From the sequence record DRR723986_1437: a stretch of DNA of 64,000 nt; one strand, 5' to 3'. Below the pieces are notes generated by a model. The model worked only from the letters and a program-made list of their open reading frames with translations. It was not told the origin of the DNA and did no database searches. The position numbers and the translations under genes were made by a program. Every line of letters starts with the position of its first letter. The first letter of the stretch is position 1. Shown one piece after another: positions 13,155-23,188 of the stretch.

Positions 13155-16100
13155 TTAGCCTCTACTGCTGTAAAACTGTGCCAACGCGGCTGCAGTGTGA
13201 CCCGCCTTCTTACCTTTGGCTTTCGCAATTTCCTGTGGGCTACCCTGTGCCACCAACTGCCCACCGCCAATGCCAGCCTCGGGACCCATGTCGATCACCC
13301 AATCAGCTTGGGCAATCAAGTCAAGGTCGTGTTCAATCACCACCACCGTGTGGCCCGCATCCACCAGCCTGTGCAGTACGGCAATCAGCTTTTCCACATC
13401 GTTCATGTGTAGGCCAACCGTGGGTTCGTCCAGCACATACAAGGTCGGGGGGCTCATTTGTACACCCGCCTTGTTTTCGCGTACTTTCACCAGCTCGGTC
13501 ACCAGCTTGATCCGCTGCGCCTCGCCACCGCTCAGCGTGGGGCTGGGCTGGCCAATAGTCAGGTACCCCAAACCAACGTCGTTCAGCAGTTGCAGGGCTT
13601 GCGCGATCGCCGGATGCGCTTCAAAAAACGGCGCTGCCTCTGAACAACTCATGTTCAAAATTTCCGCAGCGGTTTTGTCGCGCCAGGTGACTTGCAAGGT
13701 TTCCGGGTTGAATCGTTTGCCGCGACAGGCTTCACACACCACTTTCACGTCAGGCAGGAAGTTCATCTCTATGGTTTGCATGCCTTGGCCGTCGCACACC
13801 GGGCAACGGCCGGGCCCCGCATTGAAACTGAAACGGTTGGCTGCAAAGCCTCGCATCCGGGCTTCGATGGTGTCAGCCAGCACATTGCGAATTCGGTTCC
13901 AAAAGCCAATGTAAGTGGCCGGGCAACTGCGCGGTGTTTTGCCAATCGGAGTTTGGTCCACCTCCAGTACACGGGCTACTTGATCAGCACCTTCAATCGC
14001 ATCGCAGGCAAACCAGTTGTGCATGGGTTTGCCTTTCTTGTTTTGGTTCAGCACATACTGGCGCATATTGGCCAATAAAATATCGCGCGCCAAAGTCGAT
14101 TTTCCGCTACCTGACACACCAGTAATGGCGACCAAACGTCCCAGCGGAATGTCCACATTTAAACCGTTGATGTTGTGCAGTTTTGCCCCTTTAATGCTCA
14201 ATCGGGGGGTGAGTTTTTCCACCGGGCGCTTGGGCTGTAGCAAATGCGGAATCGGATTTTTCAAATAGCGGCCTGTCAGCGAGTTTTTGTCCGCTGTAAC
14301 CTCGGCCACCGTACCTTGAGAAATAATTTCGCCTCCCAGCTTGCCTGCACCAGGACCGATGTCGACCAACCGGTCAGCACGTTTCATGGTGTCAATATCG
14401 TGTTCGACCACCAACAGCGTATTGCCCTTGGCCCGAAGTTCTTCAAGCGCATCCAGCAGGCGGTGGTTGTCACGAGTGTGTAGGCCAATGGTGGGTTCGT
14501 CCAGCACGTAACACACACCGCGCAGGTTGGTGCCCAGCTGGCTGGCCAAGCGAATGCGCTGTGCTTCACCACCACTCAGAGTAGGCGCGCTGCGGTTCAG
14601 GTGCAGGTAATCAAGACCCACCTGTTTCAAAAACTTCAATCGCCCGGCCATTTCGATGCGAATGTCTTTGGCAATCGCTGTTTCGCGTTCGTCCAGTTCG
14701 AGCTGGTCCACCCACTGCAAAGCATCGCTGACGGTTTGATCAGCCAGTTCGGCGATATTGCTGTTCTTGAACTTCACAGCCAGCGCAGTGGGGTTTAGGC
14801 GTTGACCATTGCAGGAGCCACACACCATGCTTTCTCGCAAATAGCTTCCTTCGTCATTTTCAGCATTTTCGTCTGCGCTTTTGTCTTGCTCAGAAAGCCA
14901 CTTGCCTTCTTCACCTGTGGTTTCAGCATCAAACCCCTCTACCTCCTCACCCACGCCAAAGCAACTGGTACACCATCCATGTTTGCTGTTGTAACTGAAC
15001 AAGCGCGGGTCGAGCTCGGGAAAGCTGCGTGCGCAACTCGGGCATGCCCGCTTGGTGGAGTAAAACCGAATGGTGGGCGCTTCACCCTTTTTACCAGGTG
15101 CCTCAACCATGACTGTGCCTTTACCAAACTCAAGCGTTTGGACCAGCACCTCGCGCAATTCTTTTTCTGTTTTGGCCTGTACAAGCAGGGTTTTCACAGG
15201 CACCTCGATGTGGTGTTCCTGATAGCGGGCCAACTTCGGCCAGGGGTTGGTGGGCACGTACTCACCATCCACGCGCAGGCGTTCATAACCGCGGTCCACG
15301 GCCCATTTTGCAATTTCGTTGTAAATGCCTTTGCGGCCCTGCACCAGTGGTGCCAGCAGGGTTATCTCCTGCCCTTTGTAATGCTGCATGATTTGCGCCA
15401 GCATGCTGTCCATGCTTTGCGGTGCAATCGGCACTTCGCACGTGGGGCAATGCTGAATGCCCAACTTCACAAACATGAGGCGCAGGAAGTGGTACACCTC
15501 GGTCACCGTGGCGACTGTACTTTTCCGGCCACCACGGCTGGTGCGCTGCTCGATCGCCACGGTGGGGGGAATACCAAAAATGGCATCCACATCAGGCTTG
15601 GCGGCAGGCTGCACAAACTGGCGTGCGTATGCATTCAAACTTTCAAGGTAACGGCGCTGGCCTTCGGAAAACAAAATATCAAATGCCAGCGTCGATTTTC
15701 CGCTGCCCGAAGGCCCGGTAATGACAGTCATCTTTTCCCGTGGAATGGTCAGGCTGACATTTTTCAGGTTGTGCTCACGCGCATGCAAAATTTCAATGCC
15801 GTCAGTCAGGCCGCGCTTGTTGTGTTTGGTCTCCAGTCCGTACAGGGTCGCCGCCTCGGCCACCAGGTGATCACTGCCTTTGTCACTGCCTTTGTTTAAA
15901 TCGGCAGCATGCAACAGATTGGTTTGCGCAAGGTATTGTTTGATCGCAACGCCCGTGTGGCTCGCTTTGTTTTTTGCAAGCTGTTCGGGCGTTCCCTGGG
16001 CCACCAGTTCACCCCCGTATTCGCCCGCCTCGGGTCCAAGGTCGATAAGCCAATCTGCCGCGCAGATCACATCCAGATTGTGTTCAACAATCAACACACT

Positions 16101-18803
16101 GTGTCCTGCTTCCTGCAACAAACGCAGCGAACGCATCAACTTGGCCACATCGTCAAAGTGCAAACCAGTGGTCGGCTCGTCAAACACAAACAGGTCACCT
16201 CGCTTGGCCACTTTTTGACCGCTGGCGGTGAGTTTCAGGTTAGCCAGAAAACCCGCCAACTTGAGTCGTTGTGCTTCGCCACCGCTGAGCGTGGGTACAG
16301 GCTGCCCCAAACGCAAATAATTCAGCCCAACCTGTGCCAGCGGTTGCAGTGTTTTTAGTAGCGCAGAGTCTTTTTCAAACAAATCAAGCGCCTGGTCTAC
16401 GGTCAGTTCAAGTACCTGCGCCATGTTCAACACTTGGCCTTTTCGTTCAAGCGTGACTTCCAGTGCCTCTGGCCGGTAACGTGTGCCATTGCATTCGCCG
16501 CAGCGCAAATAAACATCACTCAAGAACTGCATTTCAACATGTTCAAAACCATTGCCACCACACATGGGGCAGCGGCCATCGCCACTGTTGAAACTGAAGA
16601 AGCCGGGTTTGTAATCCCGCTCTACAGCAATTTTTGTTTTGGAGAACAGTTTGCGCAGTTCATCAAACGCGCCGACATAGCTGGCGGGGTTGCTTCGCGT
16701 TGTTTTGCCGATTGGGCTTTGGTCAACAAATGCCAATTCGGAAATGAGTTCAACACCCTCCACGGAATCGAACTCACCGGGGGCCTCTGTGGGCTCACCT
16801 TTTATTTTCTTGATCGCGGGCACCAGTACATCTTGTACCAAGGTGCTTTTGCCTGAACCTGAAACACCTGTGAGTACCACCAATCTGTTGAGCGGCAGTT
16901 TGAGATCGATGTTTTTCAAGTTGTTGGCGCGCACACCGGTCAAGGTAATGTGCTCTGTGGAATCGCCCAACGGCTCGATGTATTCCACCACCTTCAGTTC
17001 ACCCTTCAAGTAGCGGGCAGTCAGCGAGTTTGCCTGAGCGATTTTGGCGGGCGCGCCATCAAATACAATATTGCCCCCGGCTTCACCCGGGCCCGGGCCA
17101 ATGTCTACGAGCCTGTCAGCCTGGTTCATCAATTGCGGGTCGTGCTCCACCACCACCAAGGTATTTCCTGCCTCTTTCAAACGCTGCATGGCCTGCGCTA
17201 CGCGCGCAATATCGCGGGGATGCAAGCCGACGGAGGGTTCGTCCAATACAAACAAGGTATTCACCAGCGAACTACCCAATGCCGTGGTCAGATTGATTCG
17301 CTGTACTTCACCACCACTGAGGGTTCTGCTTTGCCTGTCCAGCGTCAAATAACCCAAACCCACTTGAATGAGGAAGCCCAGGCGGGTACGAATTTCCTGA
17401 AGCACCAAGTCACTGGCTTCATCGAGTGCACCGGGCAGTTGCAGGTTTTTGAACAGCTGCGCCACCTTCAACAGCGGCATTTGCATGATTTCATGAATGC
17501 TGTGCTTGCCCGAATCGCTGGGCAACTTCCAGAGCAGGGAATCGGGCTTCAGACGCGCGCCGTTGCAGTCACCACACGGGGTGTAACTGCGATATTTGGA
17601 CAACATCACGCGCACGTGCATTTTGTAGGTACGGCTTTCGAGCCATTCAAAAAAACGGGCTACACCATAGAACAAGTGACCGTCCCAATTCCCATCAAAA
17701 TTGGCATCGCCCTCAATCACCCACAGCTTGTGTTCTTCGGGCAAATGTTTGTAAGCGATGTCGGTGGCGATACCGCGTTTTTTGGCAAATTTCACCAAGT
17801 CTTTCTGGCAGCTTTTAAAACTTTCCGTGGTCCAGGGCTTCACCGCGCCCTCCTCCAGCGATTTGTTTTCGTCGGGAACCACCAATCCGTAATCAATACC
17901 GATGACACGTCCAAAGCCGCGGCAGGTGTCACACGCACCCAAGGGTGAATTGAAGCTGAAGTGGCTGGGCAAAGGGCTTGAATAATCCAGATCACAAGTG
18001 GCGCAATGCAGGCCCTCGGAAAAACGCCAAGGCTGTTGCTCGTCATCGCCCTCGTCAGGCAATGCAAACACATTCACCTTGCCCTTGCCCCTGTGCAAGG
18101 CGCTGGCCACAGCGTCACTAAAGCGGCTTTCCTCAACACCCGCGACGCGGAAACGGTCTTGCACCACATCCAGCAATTTCTCCACGATGCTGCGGCCTTT
18201 TTTAATCGGCGTTTCGCGGTGAATACGGGTGTAGCCTTGCGCGCTCAGGAAGTCTTCAATTTCCTGAGTCGTAAATTTTGCGGGTACACGCACCGGGAAT
18301 GTAATCACCAAACGCGGGTCGTTCTGTGCGGCGGCCTTGTCCAGTATCGATTGTTTGATGGTGGCTACGGTGTCTTCACGTACCCACTGGCCACACTGTC
18401 GGCAATGCAAATGAGCCGCGCGGGCGTAAATCAACTTCAGGTGATCGTTGATTTCGGTCATGGTGCCCACGGTGCTGCGGGAGGTGCGCACAGGGTTGGC
18501 TTGGTCAATTGCGATGGCAGGCAAGACGCCTTCGATGCTATCTACATCGGGTTTGTCCATGCGGTCGAGAAACTGGCGCGCATAAGGCGAAAAGGTTTCG
18601 ACATAGCGACGCTGACCCTCTGCATACAGGGTATCGAACACCAATGAGCTTTTACCACTGCCCGACACACCCGTGAACACGGTAATTTCACCGGTCTTGA
18701 TGTCAATGTCGACGTTTTTGAGATTGTGCTGCCGCGCCCCCTTGATACGAATCACATTGCCAAGGTACTGGGAATTCTCGGTTTTTTTCGCTTTGGTGGT
18801 CAT
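13155..18803 (-). CDS. uvrA: Excinuclease ABC subunit A, double-length form
   Basis: 1882 aa; four Walker A motifs (GxSGSGKS), four LSGGE signatures, multiple CxxC zinc fingers; two UvrA units in tandem. Confidence 0.92.
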   Translation of the reverse strand: MTTKAKKTENSQYLGNVIRIKGARQHNLKNVDIDIKTGEITVFTGVSGSGKSSLVFDTLYAEGQRRYVETFSPYARQFLDRMDKPDVDSIEGVLPAIAIDQANPVRTSRSTVGTMTEINDHLKLIYARAAHLHCRQCGQWVREDTVATIKQSILDKAAAQNDPRLVITFPVRVPAKFTTQEIEDFLSAQGYTRIHRETPIKKGRSIVEKLLDVVQDRFRVAGVEESRFSDAVASALHRGKGKVNVFALPDEGDDEQQPWRFSEGLHCATCDLDYSSPLPSHFSFNSPLGACDTCRGFGRVIGIDYGLVVPDENKSLEEGAVKPWTTESFKSCQKDLVKFAKKRGIATDIAYKHLPEEHKLWVIEGDANFDGNWDGHLFYGVARFFEWLESRTYKMHVRVMLSKYRSYTPCGDCNGARLKPDSLLWKLPSDSGKHSIHEIMQMPLLKVAQLFKNLQLPGALDEASDLVLQEIRTRLGFLIQVGLGYLTLDRQSRTLSGGEVQRINLTTALGSSLVNTLFVLDEPSVGLHPRDIARVAQAMQRLKEAGNTLVVVEHDPQLMNQADRLVDIGPGPGEAGGNIVFDGAPAKIAQANSLTARYLKGELKVVEYIEPLGDSTEHITLTGVRANNLKNIDLKLPLNRLVVLTGVSGSGKSTLVQDVLVPAIKKIKGEPTEAPGEFDSVEGVELISELAFVDQSPIGKTTRSNPASYVGAFDELRKLFSKTKIAVERDYKPGFFSFNSGDGRCPMCGGNGFEHVEMQFLSDVYLRCGECNGTRYRPEALEVTLERKGQVLNMAQVLELTVDQALDLFEKDSALLKTLQPLAQVGLNYLRLGQPVPTLSGGEAQRLKLAGFLANLKLTASGQKVAKRGDLFVFDEPTTGLHFDDVAKLMRSLRLLQEAGHSVLIVEHNLDVICAADWLIDLGPEAGEYGGELVAQGTPEQLAKNKASHTGVAIKQYLAQTNLLHAADLNKGSDKGSDHLVAEAATLYGLETKHNKRGLTDGIEILHAREHNLKNVSLTIPREKMTVITGPSGSGKSTLAFDILFSEGQRRYLESLNAYARQFVQPAAKPDVDAIFGIPPTVAIEQRTSRGGRKSTVATVTEVYHFLRLMFVKLGIQHCPTCEVPIAPQSMDSMLAQIMQHYKGQEITLLAPLVQGRKGIYNEIAKWAVDRGYERLRVDGEYVPTNPWPKLARYQEHHIEVPVKTLLVQAKTEKELREVLVQTLEFGKGTVMVEAPGKKGEAPTIRFYSTKRACPSCARSFPELDPRLFSYNSKHGWCTSCFGVGEEVEGFDAETTGEEGKWLSEQDKSADENAENDEGSYLRESMVCGSCNGQRLNPTALAVKFKNSNIAELADQTVSDALQWVDQLELDERETAIAKDIRIEMAGRLKFLKQVGLDYLHLNRSAPTLSGGEAQRIRLASQLGTNLRGVCYVLDEPTIGLHTRDNHRLLDALEELRAKGNTLLVVEHDIDTMKRADRLVDIGPGAGKLGGEIISQGTVAEVTADKNSLTGRYLKNPIPHLLQPKRPVEKLTPRLSIKGAKLHNINGLNVDIPLGRLVAITGVSGSGKSTLARDILLANMRQYVLNQNKKGKPMHNWFACDAIEGADQVARVLEVDQTPIGKTPRSCPATYIGFWNRIRNVLADTIEARMRGFAANRFSFNAGPGRCPVCDGQGMQTIEMNFLPDVKVVCEACRGKRFNPETLQVTWRDKTAAEILNMSCSEAAPFFEAHPAIAQALQLLNDVGLGYLTIGQPSPTLSGGEAQRIKLVTELVKVRENKAGVQMSPPTLYVLDEPTVGLHMNDVEKLIAVLHRLVDAGHTVVVIEHDLDLIAQADWVIDMGPEAGIGGGQLVAQGSPQEIAKAKGKKAGHTAAALAQFYSSRG
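15871..15894. repeat. 12-bp tandem duplication in the uvrA inter-unit linker
   Basis: tcactgcctttg x2, encoding KGSDKGSD. Confidence 0.8.
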
Positions 18804-18885: not shown

Positions 18886-19950
18886 TTAAGCAACCTGTGC
18901 AAGCCTGCGTTTGCGAACACCTTGTGCCAAGGTTTCCAGCACTTGCAGGCTGTCGTCCCAGCCCACGCAACCATCGGTGATGCTTTGGCCGTAAGTCAAA
19001 GGCTTGCCGGGTTCAAGGTCCTGGCGACCTTCCACCAAGTGGCTTTCAACCATGACACCCATGATGCGCGCATCGCCGGCGGCCAGTTGTTCAGCGATGT
19101 TCTCGCACACCCCAACCTGGTTCTTGGGAACCTTGCTGCTGTTGCCATGACTTGCATCAATCATGATTCGGGCGGCCAGGCCTGCCTTGCCAATGTCGGC
19201 CGCCGCGGCCTCCACTGACGCTGCGTCATAGTTCGGGCCTTTCCCGCCACGCAGAATAATGTGGCAGTCCTCGTTGCCCGAGGTGCTGACAATCGCGCTG
19301 CGACCCTCCTTGGTTACGCTCAGGAAGTGATGTGGGTGTTGCGCTGCCTTGATGGCATCCACTGCAATTTTTACGTTGCCGTCTGTGCCATTCTTGAAAC
19401 CGACCGGACAGCTTAGACCTGATGACAACTCACGATGAATCTGGCTTTCAGTGGTGCGGGCACCAATCGCACCCCAACTGACCAAATCAGCGATGTACTG
19501 TGGGGTGATCATGTCGAGGAACTCAGTTCCCGCTGGCAAACCCAGGCTGTTGATATTCAAAAGCACTTCACGCGCCATGCGCAGGCCTTTGTTGATTTCA
19601 AAGCTGCCATCCAGATTGGGGTCGTTAATCAACCCCTTCCAGCCCACAGTGGTGCGCGGCTTCTCAAAATAGACACGCATCACAATTTCCAGGTCTTCTG
19701 CGTATTTTTCGCGATACACCTTCAGCTTGTTGGCGTATTCCATCGCTGCCTTCACGTCATGGATGGAACAGGGCCCCATTACGACGATCAAGCGATCGTC
19801 ACCACCATGCAGAATTTTGTGGAGGGCCGCACGGCAACCTGCCACTGTTTCGGCAATTGCGGGGGTAATGGGCACGTCTGCGATCAAGGCCGCAGGGGTG
19901 ATCAGTTCTTTAATTTCTTTGATTCTCAAGTCGTCTGTTACCGTGTTCAT
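18886..19950 (-). CDS. aroG: DAHP synthase (class I, AroG/AroF type)
   Basis: GPCSIHD, RVYFEKPRTTVGWKG, IGARTTESQ, DASHGNS. Confidence 0.92.
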   Translation of the reverse strand: MNTVTDDLRIKEIKELITPAALIADVPITPAIAETVAGCRAALHKILHGGDDRLIVVMGPCSIHDVKAAMEYANKLKVYREKYAEDLEIVMRVYFEKPRTTVGWKGLINDPNLDGSFEINKGLRMAREVLLNINSLGLPAGTEFLDMITPQYIADLVSWGAIGARTTESQIHRELSSGLSCPVGFKNGTDGNVKIAVDAIKAAQHPHHFLSVTKEGRSAIVSTSGNEDCHIILRGGKGPNYDAASVEAAAADIGKAGLAARIMIDASHGNSSKVPKNQVGVCENIAEQLAAGDARIMGVMVESHLVEGRQDLEPGKPLTYGQSITDGCVGWDDSLQVLETLAQGVRKRRLAQVA

Positions 19951-19998
19951 GCCAATTCTCCTGAATGCTGGCGCGCTTTTTGTTCAAAGTGTCGGTTC

Positions 19999-20036
19999 AA
20001 AAAAAAACCGCCAGGAAGTTCAGGCCTGGCGGTTTT
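19999..20036 (-). terminator. Attenuator terminator in the DAHP synthase leader
   Basis: Minus strand AAAACCGCCAGG-9 nt loop-CCTGGCGG followed by a 9-T run, upstream of the aroG start. Confidence 0.85.
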
Positions 20037-20060
20037 GGGATCTGTTTGAACTATGTGTTT

Positions 20061-20147
20061 TTACGCACAACCCTCTTCCGCCGCTTGCCCAAACCAGGCA
20101 AAGAAGCCAAAAAAAGCATAAAAAGAGTGCGCGAAATTCGTGTTCAT
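20061..20147 (-). CDS. Aromatic amino acid-rich leader peptide
   Basis: MNTNFAHSFYAFFGFFAWFGQAAEEGCA* (7 Phe, 1 Tyr, 1 Trp in 28 aa), just upstream of the terminator. Confidence 0.85.
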   Translation of the reverse strand: MNTNFAHSFYAFFGFFAWFGQAAEEGCA

Positions 20148-20245
20148 CTTTTAAATGTAATCAATTCATGGCCGCTGTGCAAGCGCGCTAAGCCAAATTC
20201 TAACAAGTCGCCGATGGCTGTGGTTGGCATCCCACTGAAAAACAA

Positions 20246-20273
20246 GGAACTTTGAGAACCTGAAGTCCACTCA
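20246..20273 (+). promoter_or_regulatory. hrp box (HrpL-type ECF promoter)
   Basis: GGAACT-N15-CCACTCA, near-perfect match to GGAACC-N15/16-CCACNNA. Confidence 0.7.
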
Positions 20274-20306
20274 AGCGTTCAATTTCAATACTCCAACCAA
20301 TGAATC

Positions 20307-20900
20307 ATGAGCATGAACGGAATCAACCCAATTCAAGTGAACCCAGTGAATATTGCCCAAGCACCTCCCCAAGCCCAACAGCGACCCACGGTGGACGCAG
20401 TAAGAACCCTCGCCGTGCAAATCAGGAGGCAAACCGCAGAGTTGATCCCGCTTGCCAACAATTTCTACACAGCATGGATGGTGTTACCACAAGCGCAGGC
20501 CCTCTCCTCTTCCGCATTACAACAACTCAAAAACACCTTTTTGGAAGCCGATGAGGGACATGCAGACTTTCTTCGTAAACTGGAGAACTGTACTGATGAA
20601 GTGCGGCACAATGCCAGAGAGGTCACTCGTTTGGCCATTTCATTGCACAACAACAGCTTCGAGGCACTCGAAATTGCCAGTCATTTACTCGAGCGGGGCC
20701 CTGGCAACTTGCTGGTGACCACGCCATTGGGGCCCTGGTCTTTGTCAAAGCAGGCCATTGACACCAGCTTGCTTTACCACATCACGGGTGATGCTGAGGT
20801 GCTGCAAGGCCAACAACCCCAAGACCGAGCCAATCTGGCTGCCTTGCATGCAGAATGGGCGCAAGACGACGCAATCGACCCCTATGCGCTTCAACGCTAG
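20307..20900 (+). CDS. Hypothetical protein, candidate type III effector
   Basis: 197 aa orphan; N/P/Q-rich N-terminus; hrp box upstream; convergent with tldD. Confidence 0.6.
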   Translation: MSMNGINPIQVNPVNIAQAPPQAQQRPTVDAVRTLAVQIRRQTAELIPLANNFYTAWMVLPQAQALSSSALQQLKNTFLEADEGHADFLRKLENCTDEVRHNAREVTRLAISLHNNSFEALEIASHLLERGPGNLLVTTPLGPWSLSKQAIDTSLLYHITGDAEVLQGQQPQDRANLAALHAEWAQDDAIDPYALQR

Positions 20901-20901
20901 T

Positions 20902-22371
20902 TTACTGAGTACCGCCCATGACCAGCCCATCAATGCGCAGGGTGGGCTGACCCACACCCACAGGTACGCTTTGACCTTCCTTACCGCAAGTGCCCACGCC
21001 ATCATCAAGCGCCATGTCATTGCCAACCATTGAAATTTTGGTAAGCGACTCTGGGCCGTTGCCGATCAAGGTTGCACCCTTGAGTGGGTAGGTGATTTTG
21101 CCGTTTTCAATTTTGTAGGCCAGCGAAGCTGAAAACACAAACTTGCCACTGGTGATGTCCACCTGACCACCGCCAAAATTCACGGCATACACGCCATCTT
21201 TTACGCTGGCGATAATTTCCTCGGGCGTTTTGTCGCCGTTCAACATGTAAGTGTTGGTCATGCGGGGCATGGGCAAATGCGCAAAGCTCTCGCGTCGACC
21301 ATTGCCAGTCACCGGCATTTTCATCAGGCGCGCATTCGTAATGTCTTGAATATAGCCTTTCAAAATACCGTCTTCAATCAGGGTGGTGCATTCGGTTTTG
21401 TTGCCTTCATCGTCAATATTCAGGGAACCCCGGCGGCTGGCCAAAGTACCATCATCAACAATCGTGACCCCCTTGGCGGCCACTCGCTGGCCAATCATGC
21501 CGGAAAAAGCACTGCTGCCTTTTCGGTTGAAGTCGCCTTCCAGACCGTGGCCAATCGCCTCATGCAGCAAAATACCAGGCCAACCTGAGCCGAGCACCAC
21601 GGTTTGAGAACCAGCGGGGGCAGGACGAGCCTCCAGATTGATCAAGGCCTGGTCCACTGCGGTGTGAGCATGGTGCATCAGGAATGCATCGTTGAAATGA
21701 CCAAAATCATAACGACCGCCCGCCCCCGACGAACCTGTCTCACGACGGCCTTTTTGTTCTACCACTACGCTGACATTGATTCGAACCAAAGGACGTACAT
21801 CCGCGGCGAGTACACCATCACTGCGAGCCACCAATACCACATCATAGGCGCCCACAATATTGGCCATCACTTGCTTCACGCGCTTGTCGCGCTTGCGTGC
21901 AAATTGTTCAAGACGCTTGAGCAGATCTACTTTTTCTGTCGATGTCAGTGTGGGAATCGGGTTCAGGGGGCTGTAGAGTGCCCGGCTTTCAGCGCCAGCA
22001 AAGCCCTTGCCCGTTTTCAGATTGCGATTGGCGGTTTTGCCCAAGCTTGCAATTTCACGCACCGACTTCGCCGCTGCCAAGATGGGTTTGAAGGCAATGT
22101 CGTCGGAATAGGCAAAAGCTGTTTTATCACCGCTGACAGCGCGCACGCCTACGCCCTGTTCAATGTTGTAGCTGCCCGATTTAACAATCCCTTCGTCCAG
22201 CGACCAACCTTCAATGCAACCGTACTGAAAATACAGATCGGCGAAATCCACCTTGTGCGAGAAAATTTCACCGAAAGCCTTCTGGATGTGGCCTTCATCA
22301 ATACCGTAGGGGGTCCACAACAGGCTTTGGGCAATGGCGAGATTGGAAATGGCGGGGTCTACTACTTTCAT
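20902..22371 (-). CDS. tldD: Metalloprotease TldD
   Basis: GWPGILLHEAIGHGLEGDFNRK, PMPRMTNTYM, GTCGKEGQSVPVGVGQPT; start taken at MKVVDP. Confidence 0.95.
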   Translation of the reverse strand: MKVVDPAISNLAIAQSLLWTPYGIDEGHIQKAFGEIFSHKVDFADLYFQYGCIEGWSLDEGIVKSGSYNIEQGVGVRAVSGDKTAFAYSDDIAFKPILAAAKSVREIASLGKTANRNLKTGKGFAGAESRALYSPLNPIPTLTSTEKVDLLKRLEQFARKRDKRVKQVMANIVGAYDVVLVARSDGVLAADVRPLVRINVSVVVEQKGRRETGSSGAGGRYDFGHFNDAFLMHHAHTAVDQALINLEARPAPAGSQTVVLGSGWPGILLHEAIGHGLEGDFNRKGSSAFSGMIGQRVAAKGVTIVDDGTLASRRGSLNIDDEGNKTECTTLIEDGILKGYIQDITNARLMKMPVTGNGRRESFAHLPMPRMTNTYMLNGDKTPEEIIASVKDGVYAVNFGGGQVDITSGKFVFSASLAYKIENGKITYPLKGATLIGNGPESLTKISMVGNDMALDDGVGTCGKEGQSVPVGVGQPTLRIDGLVMGGTQ

Positions 22372-22381
22372 GTTGAATCCT

Positions 22382-23188
22382 TTAAAGCACGCGGTGCGTA
22401 AGCGCGGGCAGGCTGTTTCGCACATCAACTATCTTAGCAGGGTCAAGCTGACCCAGCACTACCCCCTCCCCCTCTTGCAGCACATTCTCGACCTCGCCCC
22501 ACGGGTTCACCAACATGGAATGACCCCAGGTGCGGCGCCCATTCTCATGCACACCGCCTTGTCCGCAGGCCAGCACATAACACTGGTTTTCAATTGCACG
22601 AGCCCGCATTAGCACCTCCCAGTGGGCTCGACCCGTGGTGTAGGTAAATGCGGCGGGCATCACGATCAAATCAACAGGCCCCATGGCGCGGTAAAGTTCG
22701 GGAAAACGAAGGTCGTAGCACACGGACAAGCCTATTTTGAAGCCCTCCACATCGGCGACCACTGGCGTGGCCCCGGGCAGCAGTACACGCGCTTCATCGT
22801 AGCTTTCCTGCCCCTTGGTAAAACAGAACAGGTGAATTTTGTCGTACCGGGCCGTACATTCGCCCTGCGGATTGAAGACCAGCGTGGTGTTGAAAACGCG
22901 ACCCTCTACGTCGCTGGCAATTGGAAGGGTTCCCGCCACAATGTGGACGTTGCGCACCACGGCCTGATCGGCGAGGAATTGCTGGATTGGCCCTTGGCCG
23001 TATGCTTCGGCGATCGCCAACTTGTCGGTGTCTTTGTGGCCCATCAAGCAAAAGTATTCTGGCAACAGCACCAATTGCGCGCCCTGTTTGGCAGCCTGAC
23101 CGATCAGGCGCTGCGCAATGTCCAGGTTCCGTTCAAGGTCAGGTGTTGCAATCATTTGCAAACTTGCGACGGTCATGGAGTGGCTCAT
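22382..23188 (-). CDS. Carbon-nitrogen hydrolase (Nit family)
   Basis: LPEYF, YDKIHLF, VCYDLRFPEL catalytic E-K-C triad; yhdP-nit-tldD synteny. Confidence 0.9.
   Translation of the reverse strand: MSHSMTVASLQMIATPDLERNLDIAQRLIGQAAKQGAQLVLLPEYFCLMGHKDTDKLAIAEAYGQGPIQQFLADQAVVRNVHIVAGTLPIASDVEGRVFNTTLVFNPQGECTARYDKIHLFCFTKGQESYDEARVLLPGATPVVADVEGFKIGLSVCYDLRFPELYRAMGPVDLIVMPAAFTYTTGRAHWEVLMRARAIENQCYVLACGQGGVHENGRRTWGHSMLVNPWGEVENVLQEGEGVVLGQLDPAKIVDVRNSLPALTHRVL

What the first reader, a model, noticed from the sequence alone, without database searches (positions are those of the whole stretch)
19999..20147. Unannotated Phe/Tyr/Trp leader-peptide attenuator for DAHP synthase
Seen in sequence: a 28-aa ORF (MNTNFAHSFYAFFGFFAWFGQAAEEGCA) containing all three aromatic residues, followed 24 nt later by a strong intrinsic terminator ahead of the aroG start. 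Leader segments GCCTGG/TTTGGG and GGCGG are complementary to CCCAAA/CCAGGC and CCGCC on the terminator's 5' side, so alternative folds are possible. Established: ribosome-mediated attenuation is classic for trp, pheA and his, whereas E. coli DAHP synthase genes are controlled by TyrR/TrpR. Inference: one leader reports all three end products to the first step of the shikimate pathway.
Basis: partly seen in the sequence, partly recalled or inferred. Interest (0 to 1): 0.7.

Follow-up and report, generated by a model that had tools for sequence, protein, structure and literature searches.

The report
Aromatic leader-peptide attenuator before aroG
A 28-codon mini-gene packed with phenylalanine and tyrosine codons, followed by a switchable transcription stop signal, sits in front of the first gene of aromatic amino-acid synthesis; the mechanism is the textbook one, but this conserved family appears in no catalogue or paper I could search.

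Summary
The leader ORF is 20147..20061, the terminator 20036..19999, and the aroG-type DAHP synthase starts at 19950.

By itself the ORF is barely beyond chance. Conservation is what supports it:
- 56 of 80 aroG-orthologue loci carry the same CCGCC...GGCGG terminator, and 53 also have a Phe/Tyr-rich leader ORF.
- A covariance model built from these hits 41 of 151 Burkholderiales genomes.
- All 10 fetched best hits lie just upstream of aroG.

A near-invariant GGCGG inside the leader ORF copies the terminator's 3' arm and can pair with its 5' arm. Together with a hairpin over the aromatic codons, this gives the classical three-state switch.

I read it as a ribosome-mediated attenuator that senses Phe and Tyr, confidence 0.85. 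Trp sensing is not supported as a family trait: W occurs in 17 of 54 leaders, about the background rate.

No Rfam, NCBIfam or Pfam family covers it, and none of my 9 paper searches found it. The closest proven case is Corynebacterium aroR-aroF.

Earlier notes of this scan describe the same kind of element in other genomes.

It is a new member of a known kind, of moderate interest.

The parts
20154..20182 (-). Putative promoter: -35 TTGCAC (20182..20177), 17-nt spacer, -10 TACATT (20159..20154), then 6 nt to the leader ATG. It would give a leaderless or nearly leaderless leader mRNA.
   Evidence: Read. All 4 Limnobacter sequences keep a -10-like hexamer 6 nt before the ATG. It is a weak consensus match: the tool's own scan lists no promoter in 19700-20500. 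Inferred, not shown.
20061..20147 (-). Leader ORF, 28 codons plus stop: MNTNFAHSFYAFFGFFAWFGQAAEEGCA.
   Evidence: The same or similar ORF lies upstream of aroG in 53 of 80 orthologue loci. Substitutions within the aromatic run are synonymous or swap F and Y, and ORF length is kept within clades.
20091..20123 (-). Region 1: regulatory codons 9-19 (UUU UAU GCU UUU UUU GGC UUC UUU GCC UGG UUU), where a ribosome would stall.
   Evidence: In the ribosome-free fold these codons pair with region 2.
20071..20090 (-). Region 2: GGGCAAGCGGCGGAAGAGGG, codons 20-26. Its core GGCGG (20082..20078) has the same letters as the terminator's 3' arm.
   Evidence: The core is invariant or nearly so in 54 sequences. 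It pairs with CCGCC of region 3 in 88.6% of cells, against 17-50% when the partner is slid. It pairs with region 1 in the full-length fold.
20025..20039 (-). Region 3: CCCAAAACCGCCAGG, the terminator's 5' arm (20036..20025) with three preceding C. It is shared between terminator and antiterminator.
19999..20015 (-). Region 4: terminator 3' arm CCTGGCGGTTTT and the run of nine T (20007..19999).
   Evidence: The hairpin alone is about -19 kcal/mol. Across relatives 89.5% of cells are paired, with an AU/GC compensatory pair (35 against 17 sequences). RNAalifold predicts the same stem unaided.
19958..19962 (-). Shine-Dalgarno AGGAG of aroG, 7 nt before its ATG.
   Evidence: Read.
18886..19950 (-). 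aroG-type (class I-alpha) DAHP synthase, 354 aa: the regulated gene.
   Evidence: NCBIfam NF006723 AroG, 585.9 bits (cut-off 568), and TIGR00034, 547 bits. It is the only DAHP synthase found in the nearest held genome G001.

Best explanation
This is a classical ribosome-mediated transcription attenuator. It controls aroG, which appears to be the only DAHP synthase of this Limnobacter, and it belongs to a conserved Burkholderiales family.

Proposed mechanism:
1. Transcription starts just upstream of, or at, the leader AUG (20147).
2. A ribosome translates the 28-codon leader.
3. When charged tRNA-Phe and tRNA-Tyr are plentiful, the ribosome reaches the stop codon and covers region 2. If the leader is not translated at all, regions 1 and 2 pair instead. 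Either way the CCGCCAGG/CCUGGCGG hairpin with its U-run forms, and transcription ends before aroG.
4. When Phe or Tyr is short, the ribosome stalls in the run of codons 9-16. Region 2 (core GGCGG plus flanking bases) is then free to pair with the terminator's 5' arm. The terminator cannot form, and RNA polymerase reads into aroG.

Shown here: the anatomy, its conservation, and the alternative pairings in silico. Inferred: translation of the leader, the response to starvation, and the start site. Phe is the dominant signal (7 codons) and Tyr the second. Any contribution from the single Trp codon is doubtful.
For: Anatomy.

Conservation next to the same gene:
- 56 of 80 aroG-orthologue loci have a CCGCC...GGCGG hairpin plus a T-run upstream, and 53 of 80 also have an aromatic-rich leader ORF.
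- Of the other three, two are cut by contig ends and one (L073) has a disrupted frame. All three still match the model at 79-97 bits.
- Model R1, scanned over whole genomes without reference to aroG, hits 41 of 151 Burkholderiales genomes: 33 full-length and 8 partial.
- 10 of 10 fetched best hits have an aroG orthologue of 63.5-100% identity directly downstream on the same strand.

Coding signature: within the aromatic run, changes are TTT/TTC, TAT/TAC or F/Y swaps. The N-terminal codons vary freely while frame and length are kept.

Terminator: 89.5% of cells are paired. Four pairs show changes on both sides, including AU 35 against GC 17. No shuffle of 500 reaches the covariation score. RNAalifold finds the stem independently.

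Antiterminator:
- With a ribosome mask at the middle aromatic codon and the transcript cut before the 3' arm, at least 5 nt of the 5' arm pair upstream in 53 of 54 sequences, median z = -2.0.
- The core pairing holds in 88.6% of cells, against 17-50% in slid controls.
- L047 changed all three copies consistently: CCGGCGG / CCGCCGG / CCGGCGG.
- The flanking inner helix is clade-specific. Own partners give -7.04 kcal/mol against -5.64 for swapped partners, and 0 of 2000 permutations reach this.

Protector hairpin: in ribosome-free full-length folds the terminator forms in 52 of 53 sequences, and region 2 pairs with upstream leader sequence in 43 of 53.

For this window, the modelled antiterminator is -26.4 kcal/mol for stalls at codons 10-13, -20.5 at codon 15, -16.6 at codon 16, and -1.3 with the ribosome at the stop codon.

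Biological sense: the nearest genome G001 (100% complete, AroG 100% identical) has one TIGR00034 hit, no class II enzyme, and no I-beta hit over the cut-off.

Precedent: in Corynebacterium glutamicum the aroR leader (Phe-Tyr-Phe) attenuates aroF (passages of PMC11802643, and of PMC4046766).
Against: - There are no expression data. The RNA-library contigs span the whole region and show no starts or ends.
- No Shine-Dalgarno sequence precedes the leader ATG, and the promoter is a weak consensus match. The tool's scan lists none.
- The antiterminator core never varies, so it offers no classical covariation. Only 1 cell shows a change on both sides, and 177 of 500 shuffles do as well.
- In equilibrium folds of the complete transcript the terminator wins for nearly every mask position, so the switch has to be kinetic, as in known attenuators.
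- In this window the antiterminator is only moderately better than shuffles: z = -1.94, with 4 of 100 shuffles as good. In two Limnobacter relatives it is not better at all: L001 z = -0.1 (27 of 100) and L002 z = -0.24 (20 of 100).
- 24 of 80 orthologue loci lack the element. One of them, L058, is cut by a contig end 60 nt upstream of aroG and has a partial model match. Another 22 give no model match even at E <= 1.
- 110 of 151 Burkholderiales genomes gave no match.
- The partner-swap and shuffle tests overstate significance, because relatives are not independent.
- The leaders counted were chosen for holding at least 4 aromatic residues, which inflates the F and Y enrichment.
Confidence: 0.85

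Rival explanations
1. A true three-way sensor. Stalling at the single Trp codon (codon 18) also gives read-through, so Phe, Tyr and Trp all report to the one DAHP synthase.
For: UGG at codon 18 is kept in all 4 Limnobacter sequences, and two of them have a second UGG at codon 20. The enzyme seems to be the only DAHP synthase, so a Trp signal would make sense. With a ribosome at codon 18 the GGCGG core is just outside my mask and can still pair with CCGCC.
Against: W occurs in 17 of 54 leaders (16 of 50 distinct), against 27% expected from background. Its share of residues is 1.4% against 1.2%. The UGG lies in GCCUGG, which is complementary to CCAGGC of the terminator arm, so RNA pairing can explain why it is kept. 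The modelled antiterminator for a stall at codon 18 is -15.3 kcal/mol, against -26.4 for codons 10-13. In C. glutamicum even the Tyr codon of aroR had no measurable effect (passage of PMC11802643).
Confidence: 0.2
2. The short terminated transcript, or its peptide, has a function of its own, for example as a trans-acting small RNA, besides or instead of cis attenuation.
For: The RNA sequence is very strongly conserved, beyond what pairing needs: 15 invariant columns across 54 sequences. Weak sub-threshold resemblance to Hfq-binding sRNA models, isrK 21.2 bits with E = 0.051. A Trp attenuator RNA that acts in trans is described for Sinorhizobium (abstract of PMC7968998 as listed).
Against: All Rfam sRNA matches are far below their gathering scores and rest on the terminator hairpin. 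The three-copy constraint (regions 2, 3 and 4 share the same letters) already explains the invariance. The position is always directly before aroG. No target search was done.
Confidence: 0.08
3. The ORF is not translated. The hairpin is a plain, partly leaky terminator or a protein- or RNA-bound element, and aroG is regulated by a transcription factor of the TyrR/PhhR type.
For: There is no Shine-Dalgarno before the leader ATG, the promoter match is weak, and there is no direct evidence of translation.
Against: An untranslated RNA would not keep an open frame of constant length, with F/Y-preserving and synonymous changes, across families of Burkholiderales-level divergence. A -10 box 4-9 nt before the ATG in 26 of 53 loci offers leaderless initiation as an explanation for the missing Shine-Dalgarno.
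Confidence: 0.05

Closest known systems
Corynebacterium glutamicum aroR-aroF attenuator (Neshat et al. 2014, seen only as summarised in passages of PMC11802643 and PMC4046766)
   Same: A leader peptide with Phe and Tyr codons, plus an attenuator, directly upstream of a DAHP synthase gene. Read-through rises under Phe limitation.
   Different: A different phylum. The leader is much smaller in aromatic codons (Phe-Tyr-Phe, against a run of 7 F and 1 Y here). I had no sequence to compare, so homology was not tested, and independent origin is likely. C. glutamicum has a second DAHP synthase, whereas here aroG seems to be the only one.
Escherichia coli pheL-pheA attenuator (Rfam Phe_leader RF01859) and the pheM-pheST leader
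   Same: A Phe-codon-rich leader ORF, regions 1-4 with a terminator and an antiterminator, and a U-run. It is the best Rfam match to this region.
   Different: The match is 28 bits against a gathering score of 55. No gathering-level hit was found in 12 related loci or in genome G001. The regulated gene is aroG, not pheA. The leader is mixed Phe/Tyr. E. coli aroG is under TyrR control instead (passages of PMC5343134).
Predicted attenuators before aroF(aroA-I-alpha_Y)-tyrA in Vibrio species (Merino database, as listed in Table 7 of PMC1173090)
   Same: A predicted attenuator in front of a DAHP synthase gene in Proteobacteria.
   Different: Those are database predictions before a Tyr-branch operon in Vibrio. 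That paper gives no leader peptide or family description. The only Bordetella entry in the table is before gyrA-serC-pheA-tyrA, not aroG.
Multivalent attenuators (ilvGMEDA leader with Leu/Val/Ile codons; thr leader with Thr/Ile codons), recalled from textbook knowledge, not from a call
   Same: One leader mixes codons for several end products of a branched pathway.
   Different: Different pathways and sequences. Here two of the three end products (Phe, Tyr) are clearly represented.
Leaderless polycysteine short ORFs acting as Cys-responsive attenuators in mycobacteria (bioRxiv 10.1101/834739, abstract as listed)
   Same: If the promoter reading is right, the leader peptide is translated from an mRNA that begins at or next to its AUG.
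   Different: Actinobacteria, Cys codons, a different target operon. For the present element the leaderless start is only inferred from the position of the -10 box.

Membership tests
Ribosome-mediated (leader-peptide) transcription attenuators of amino-acid biosynthesis genes (trpL, pheL, hisL class) | Short ORF upstream of the biosynthetic gene, enriched in codons for the pathway's end product(s) | tested here: met
   28-codon ORF with 7 F, 1 Y and 1 W. F is 20% and Y 9.4% of residues in 50 distinct family leaders, against 3.8% and 2.2% background. The leaders were selected for holding at least 4 aromatic residues.
Ribosome-mediated (leader-peptide) transcription attenuators of amino-acid biosynthesis genes (trpL, pheL, hisL class) | Intrinsic terminator (GC-rich hairpin plus U-run) between the leader ORF and the structural gene | tested here: met
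   Hairpin 20036..20004 with nine U. It is conserved, with compensatory pairs, in 54 sequences.
Ribosome-mediated (leader-peptide) transcription attenuators of amino-acid biosynthesis genes (trpL, pheL, hisL class) | Antiterminator (2:3) that excludes the terminator and is available only when the ribosome stalls at the regulatory codons | tested here: met
   In silico only. The 5' arm is paired upstream in 53 of 54 masked, truncated folds. The GGCGG:CCGCC core is paired in 88.6% of cells. The inner helix is clade-specific. Energies in this window depend on the stall position as expected. It is weak in L001 and L002.
Ribosome-mediated (leader-peptide) transcription attenuators of amino-acid biosynthesis genes (trpL, pheL, hisL class) | Protector (1:2) hairpin that ties up region 2 when the leader is not being translated | tested here: met
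   The full-length fold pairs the aromatic codons with region 2. Region 2 is paired upstream in 43 of 53 family members.
Ribosome-mediated (leader-peptide) transcription attenuators of amino-acid biosynthesis genes (trpL, pheL, hisL class) | The leader is translated, and read-through rises when the cognate charged tRNA is scarce | not testable with these tools
   RNA-library contigs cover the region without showing ends or levels. This needs reporter, Term-seq or Ribo-seq experiments.
Rfam Phe_leader (RF01859) | Covariance-model score at or above the gathering score of 55 bits | tested here: not met
   28.0 bits, E = 0.03. 0 matches at gathering level in 12 related loci. No match in G001.
Burkholiderales aroG leader family as defined here (model R1) | Full-length match to R1 directly upstream of an aroG orthologue | tested here: met
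   The window scores 82.4 bits, E = 1e-16, but it was one of the 54 sequences the model was built from, so it matches by construction. The independent support is that genomes not used for building give full-length hits next to aroG.
Corynebacterium glutamicum aroR-aroF attenuator | Sequence or structural homology to aroR and its attenuator | not tested
Only functional analogy can be claimed.

The most novel reading that the evidence does not exclude
In Limnobacter and Alcaligenaceae the leader peptide is translated from a leaderless mRNA, with transcription starting at or within a base or two of the AUG. A 70S-initiated, Shine-Dalgarno-free leader would then drive a Phe+Tyr (possibly also Trp) multivalent attenuator on the cell's only DAHP synthase. 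That would make it the single transcriptional gate of the whole shikimate pathway in a large part of Burkholderiales, including Bordetella, Achromobacter and Burkholderia. The supporting observation is a conserved -10 box, often an extended TGnTAGAGT, 4-9 nt before the ATG in 26 of 53 loci, with no Shine-Dalgarno.
Probability: 0.4. Interest if true: 0.55.

Novelty: new member of a known kind. Interest (0 to 1): 0.4.

Why it matters
DAHP synthase is the entry point of the shikimate pathway. In E. coli it is controlled by repressors (TyrR, TrpR) acting on three isoenzymes. Here a single enzyme seems to be gated by a leader-peptide attenuator, and the same device is conserved across many Burkholderiales, among them genera with clinical and agricultural members.

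Cataloguing it, for example as an Rfam family and a small-ORF annotation, would do three things:
- fill a gap in regulon reconstructions for this order;
- explain an unannotated conserved intergenic element;
- give a compact natural Phe/Tyr-responsive switch.

The mechanism itself is textbook, so the gain is in annotation and scope, not in principle.

Tried and rejected
- RNA evidence. Seven runs on record as RNA hold the stretch. I laid four of them (X9, X10, X11, X12). All are contigs that span the whole 19300-20700 stretch or most of it, so nothing can be said about starts, ends, strand or level.
- Own genome. It is not held, so I used the nearest genome, G001.
- Rfam. Only sub-threshold matches were found (Phe_leader 28 bits, isrK 21 bits, NsiR1, Hrs12, RcsR1). 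All rest on the terminator hairpin, and I rejected them as memberships.
- NCBIfam and Pfam on 6 leader peptides. There were no families, except one sub-threshold Pfam 'Salyut' match for L040 (18.5 bits, cut-off 27), which I took as chance.
- The tool's promoter and terminator scan. It found no promoter. The only two terminator-like sites are on the + strand inside the leader ORF, no more than shuffles give.
- Equilibrium folding of the complete transcript with ribosome masks. The terminator persists for almost all masks, so I switched to transcripts cut before the 3' arm.
It is possible in the four Limnobacter sequences, but I saw no compensatory change, and it is not the family-wide pairing (read).
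- Literature. Nine searches found no description of an aroG leader in Beta- or Gammaproteobacteria. The comparative paper most likely to contain one (Vitreschak et al. 2004, FEMS Microbiol Lett) is not held. The original Neshat et al. 2014 paper was not looked up. Absence from print is therefore not established.

Full report
**What is there**

The feature lies on the minus strand. Going 5' to 3':
- a possible promoter: TTGCAC at 20182..20177, 17 nt, then TACATT at 20159..20154;
- a 28-codon ORF at 20147..20061, MNTNFAHSFYAFFGFFAWFGQAAEEGCA;
- 24 nt of spacer;
- a hairpin, AAAACCGCCAGG / 9-nt loop / CCUGGCGGUUUU (20036..20004), running into nine U (20007..19999);
- 48 nt of spacer;
- AGGAG at 19962..19958;
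- the ATG at 19950 of a 354-aa DAHP synthase.

The synthase passes the NCBIfam AroG equivalog at 585.9 bits, cut-off 568. The finding's coordinates, 19999-20147, run exactly from the end of the U-run to the leader ATG. The region folds better than all 200 shuffles (-51.4 kcal/mol, z = -3.18).

By aromatic content alone the ORF is first of 448 short ATG-ORFs in the window, but only marginally. The single locus would therefore not be convincing on its own.

**Organism and gene context**

The AroG protein is 98% identical to that of Limnobacter alexandrii, and 93% and 90% identical to two other Limnobacter species.

The window's own assembly is not held. The nearest held genome, G001, is 100% complete and its AroG is 100% identical. 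In G001 I found:
- one class I-alpha DAHP synthase;
- no class II enzyme;
- only a sub-threshold I-beta-type match, 110.7 bits against a cut-off of 267.75. By recall, this is probably KDO-8-phosphate synthase.

So this aroG appears to be the only entry into the shikimate pathway.

**Conservation**

I fetched 80 loci encoding the closest AroG relatives, at 69-98% identity.

- 56 of 80 carry a CCGCC...GGCGG hairpin followed by at least 4 T upstream of the gene. 53 of 80 also have a closed short ORF with at least 4 aromatic residues ending 20-58 nt before the hairpin.
- These come from Limnobacter, Achromobacter, Bordetella, Orrella, Pollutimonas, Advenella, Herbaspirillum, Noviherbaspirillum, Collimonas, Undibacterium, Oxalicibacterium, Paraburkholderia, Caballeronia, Cupriavidus and many MAGs. 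Two Xanthomonadales, Dyella and Rhodanobacter, are also among them.
- Of the three loci with a hairpin but no ORF, L049 and L052 are cut by contig ends. L073 (Candidatus Burkholderia humilis) has a disrupted frame. All three still match the model at 79-97 bits.
- 24 of 80 loci lack the element. Of these, 22 give no model match even at E <= 1. L058 has only 60 nt of upstream sequence, which matches the terminator end. L068 has an irrelevant 16-bit match.

I built a covariance model, R1, from the 54 sequences (window plus 53 loci) and scanned whole genomes with it, without reference to aroG.

- It hit 41 of 151 evenly drawn genomes of the same order, or 40 of 140 good-quality genomes and 34 of 96 genera. 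33 hits were full-length and 8 partial. One of the partial hits is in the unpublished genome G027.
- All 10 fetched best hits have an aroG orthologue directly downstream on the same strand.
- In a class-wide sample it hit 4 of 151 genomes. Two of those are outside the order, and one of the two is full-length at E = 9.4e-15.

**It is a coding leader**

- Within clades the ORF keeps its length.
- The first 5-8 codons vary freely.
- Inside the aromatic run the changes are TTT/TTC, TAT/TAC or Phe/Tyr swaps.
- Gaps in the aromatic run of the alignment are multiples of three.

F occurs in 54 of 54 leaders, Y in 52 of 54, and W in 17 of 54. Among 50 distinct leaders, F makes up 20% of residues (background 3.8%), Y 9.4% (2.2%) and W 1.4% (1.2%). 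32% hold a W, where 27% would be expected by chance. One caveat applies: the leaders were picked for holding at least 4 aromatic residues.

**The switch**

The alignment shows three near-invariant copies of one word:
- region 2, (C)UGGCGG, inside the leader ORF. It codes Leu-Ala-Glu, Ala-Ala-Glu or Thr-Ala-Val. In this window it reads GCGGCGG, 20084..20078;
- region 3, CCGCCAG, the terminator's 5' arm;
- region 4, CUGGCGG, the terminator's 3' arm.

Regions 2 and 4 thus compete for region 3.

Terminator:
- 89.5% of cells are paired. Four pairs change on both sides, including AU in 35 sequences against GC in 17. No shuffle of 500 reaches the covariation score.
- RNAalifold predicts this stem unaided.

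Antiterminator core:
- 88.6% of cells are paired, against 17-50% when the partner is slid by 1-3 columns. It is almost invariant, so there is no real covariation.
- L047 is the informative exception. All three copies carry the same change: CCGGCGG, CCGCCGG, CCGGCGG.

Inner helix next to the core:
- It is clade-specific, for example GGG:CCC, GUCGAA:UUCGAC and CGGU:ACCG.
- Own partners bind at -7.04 kcal/mol against -5.64 for swapped partners, and 0 of 2000 permutations reach this. The figure is overstated because relatives share sequence.

Folding tests across the family:
- I placed a ribosome mask at the middle aromatic codon and cut the transcript before region 4. At least 5 nt of region 3 then pair upstream in 53 of 54 sequences, median z = -2.0.
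- Without a ribosome, the full transcript forms the terminator in 52 of 53 sequences. Region 2 is tied to the upstream aromatic codons in 43 of 53.

In this window the modelled antiterminator depends on where the ribosome sits:

| Ribosome position | Antiterminator, kcal/mol |
|---|---|
| Stalled at codons 10-13 | -26.4 |
| Stalled at codon 15 | -20.5 |
| Stalled at codon 16 | -16.6 |
| Stalled at codon 18 (Trp) | -15.3 |
| Stalled at codon 19 | -8.8 |
| At the stop codon | -1.3 |

Weak points:
- This window's z is -1.94, with 4 of 100 shuffles as good.
- Two Limnobacter relatives show no excess over shuffles: L001 and L002, z of -0.1 and -0.24.
- Equilibrium folds of the whole transcript keep the terminator. 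The switch must therefore be kinetic, as it is in the classical cases.

**Which amino acids**

Phe (7 codons) and Tyr are the family's conserved signals, and F and Y swap freely. Trp is not enriched across the family.

In Limnobacter the UGG at codon 18 is kept in all four sequences. However, it sits in GCCUGG, which is complementary to CCAGGC of the terminator arm, so RNA structure could be what preserves it. Its position also gives only a weak antiterminator in my model.

I therefore take the three-way reading as possible but unsupported, at about 0.2.

**Start of the leader mRNA**

No Shine-Dalgarno precedes the leader ATG. Instead, a -10-like hexamer lies 6 nt before it in all four Limnobacter sequences. 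An extended -10 (TGnTAGAGT) lies 6-8 nt before it in the Alcaligenaceae. In all, 26 of 53 loci have their best promoter match ending 4-9 nt before the ATG.

This suggests a leaderless leader mRNA in these lineages. The Oxalobacteraceae instead have TTGCCA-17-CACTAT about 32-34 nt upstream. The tool's stricter scan lists no promoter in this window, so this remains an inference.

**Comparison with what is known**

The mechanism is that of trpL, pheL and hisL.

- Rfam's Phe_leader is the best library match, but at 28 bits against a gathering score of 55.
- Nothing reaches gathering level in 12 related loci or in G001.
- NCBIfam and Pfam have no family for six representative leader peptides.
- The window's peptide is absent from a collection of about 15 billion predicted proteins. 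2 of the 8 leaders looked up exist there only as unnamed calls.

In print:
- An attenuator on a DAHP synthase gene is experimentally described for Corynebacterium glutamicum. The aroR leader holds Phe-Tyr-Phe, responds to Phe and does not respond to Tyr (passages of PMC11802643, and PMC4046766).
- Database predictions exist for Vibrio aroF-tyrA (Table 7 of PMC1173090).
- E. coli DAHP synthase genes are under TyrR and TrpR (passages of PMC5343134).
- Nine searches found no description of an aroG leader in Burkholderiales.
- The key comparative paper, Vitreschak et al. 2004, is not held, so I cannot say the family is unpublished.

Earlier notes of this scan report the same kind of element in other genomes, several of them in Burkholderiales and one in Geobacter. 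I re-tested the Burkholderiales conservation myself. I did not test the Geobacter claim.

**Verdict**

- The attenuator reading is supported. The claim that it senses all three amino acids is only partly supported.
- Best explanation: a ribosome-mediated, Phe/Tyr-responsive transcription attenuator of the sole DAHP synthase gene, confidence 0.85.
- It is a new, seemingly uncatalogued member of a well-known kind. Interest 0.4.

Noticed in passing
window 20148-20182 (-); also L008, L010-L017, L019, L037, L065, L077, L080 just upstream of the leader ATG: No Shine-Dalgarno precedes the leader ATG. A -10 box, often the extended form TGnTAGAGT, ends 4-9 nt before the ATG in 26 of 53 loci. This suggests leaderless leader-peptide mRNAs in Limnobacter and Alcaligenaceae.
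   Followed up: partly
L073:996-1143 (Candidatus Burkholderia humilis): The RNA element matches the model full-length at 88.7 bits, but the leader frame has no closed short ORF. It reads on through the terminator region. This is possibly decay of the leader in a reduced symbiont genome.
   Followed up: partly
L047:996-1145: This is the only sequence in which the A/U of the conserved word changed. All three copies (region 2, and the terminator's 5' and 3' arms) changed together: CCGGCGG / CCGCCGG / CCGGCGG.
   Followed up: yes
window 13155-18803 (-): A 1882-aa ORF with repeated UvrA-like ABC ATPase motifs, about twice the usual UvrA length as I recall it. It starts 82 nt downstream of aroG on the same strand.
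   Followed up: no
window 20307-20900 (+): A 197-aa ORF divergent from the leader promoter, with no NCBIfam family. It nearly abuts the end of the 508-aa minus-strand ORF 20902-22428, which I did not search against any family. It may or may not be a real gene.
   Followed up: no
window 20137: Contigs of two metatranscriptome runs (X11, X12) carry A instead of T here. On the minus strand this changes leader codon 4 from Asn to Ile, in the variable N-terminal part of the leader. It is a strain difference that leaves the aromatic run untouched.
   Followed up: no
G001:C3:6987-7043 (L095): A second, weak partial match of model R1 (positions 95-152, E = 7e-4) elsewhere in the nearest genome. It is probably just a similar terminator hairpin.
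   Followed up: no
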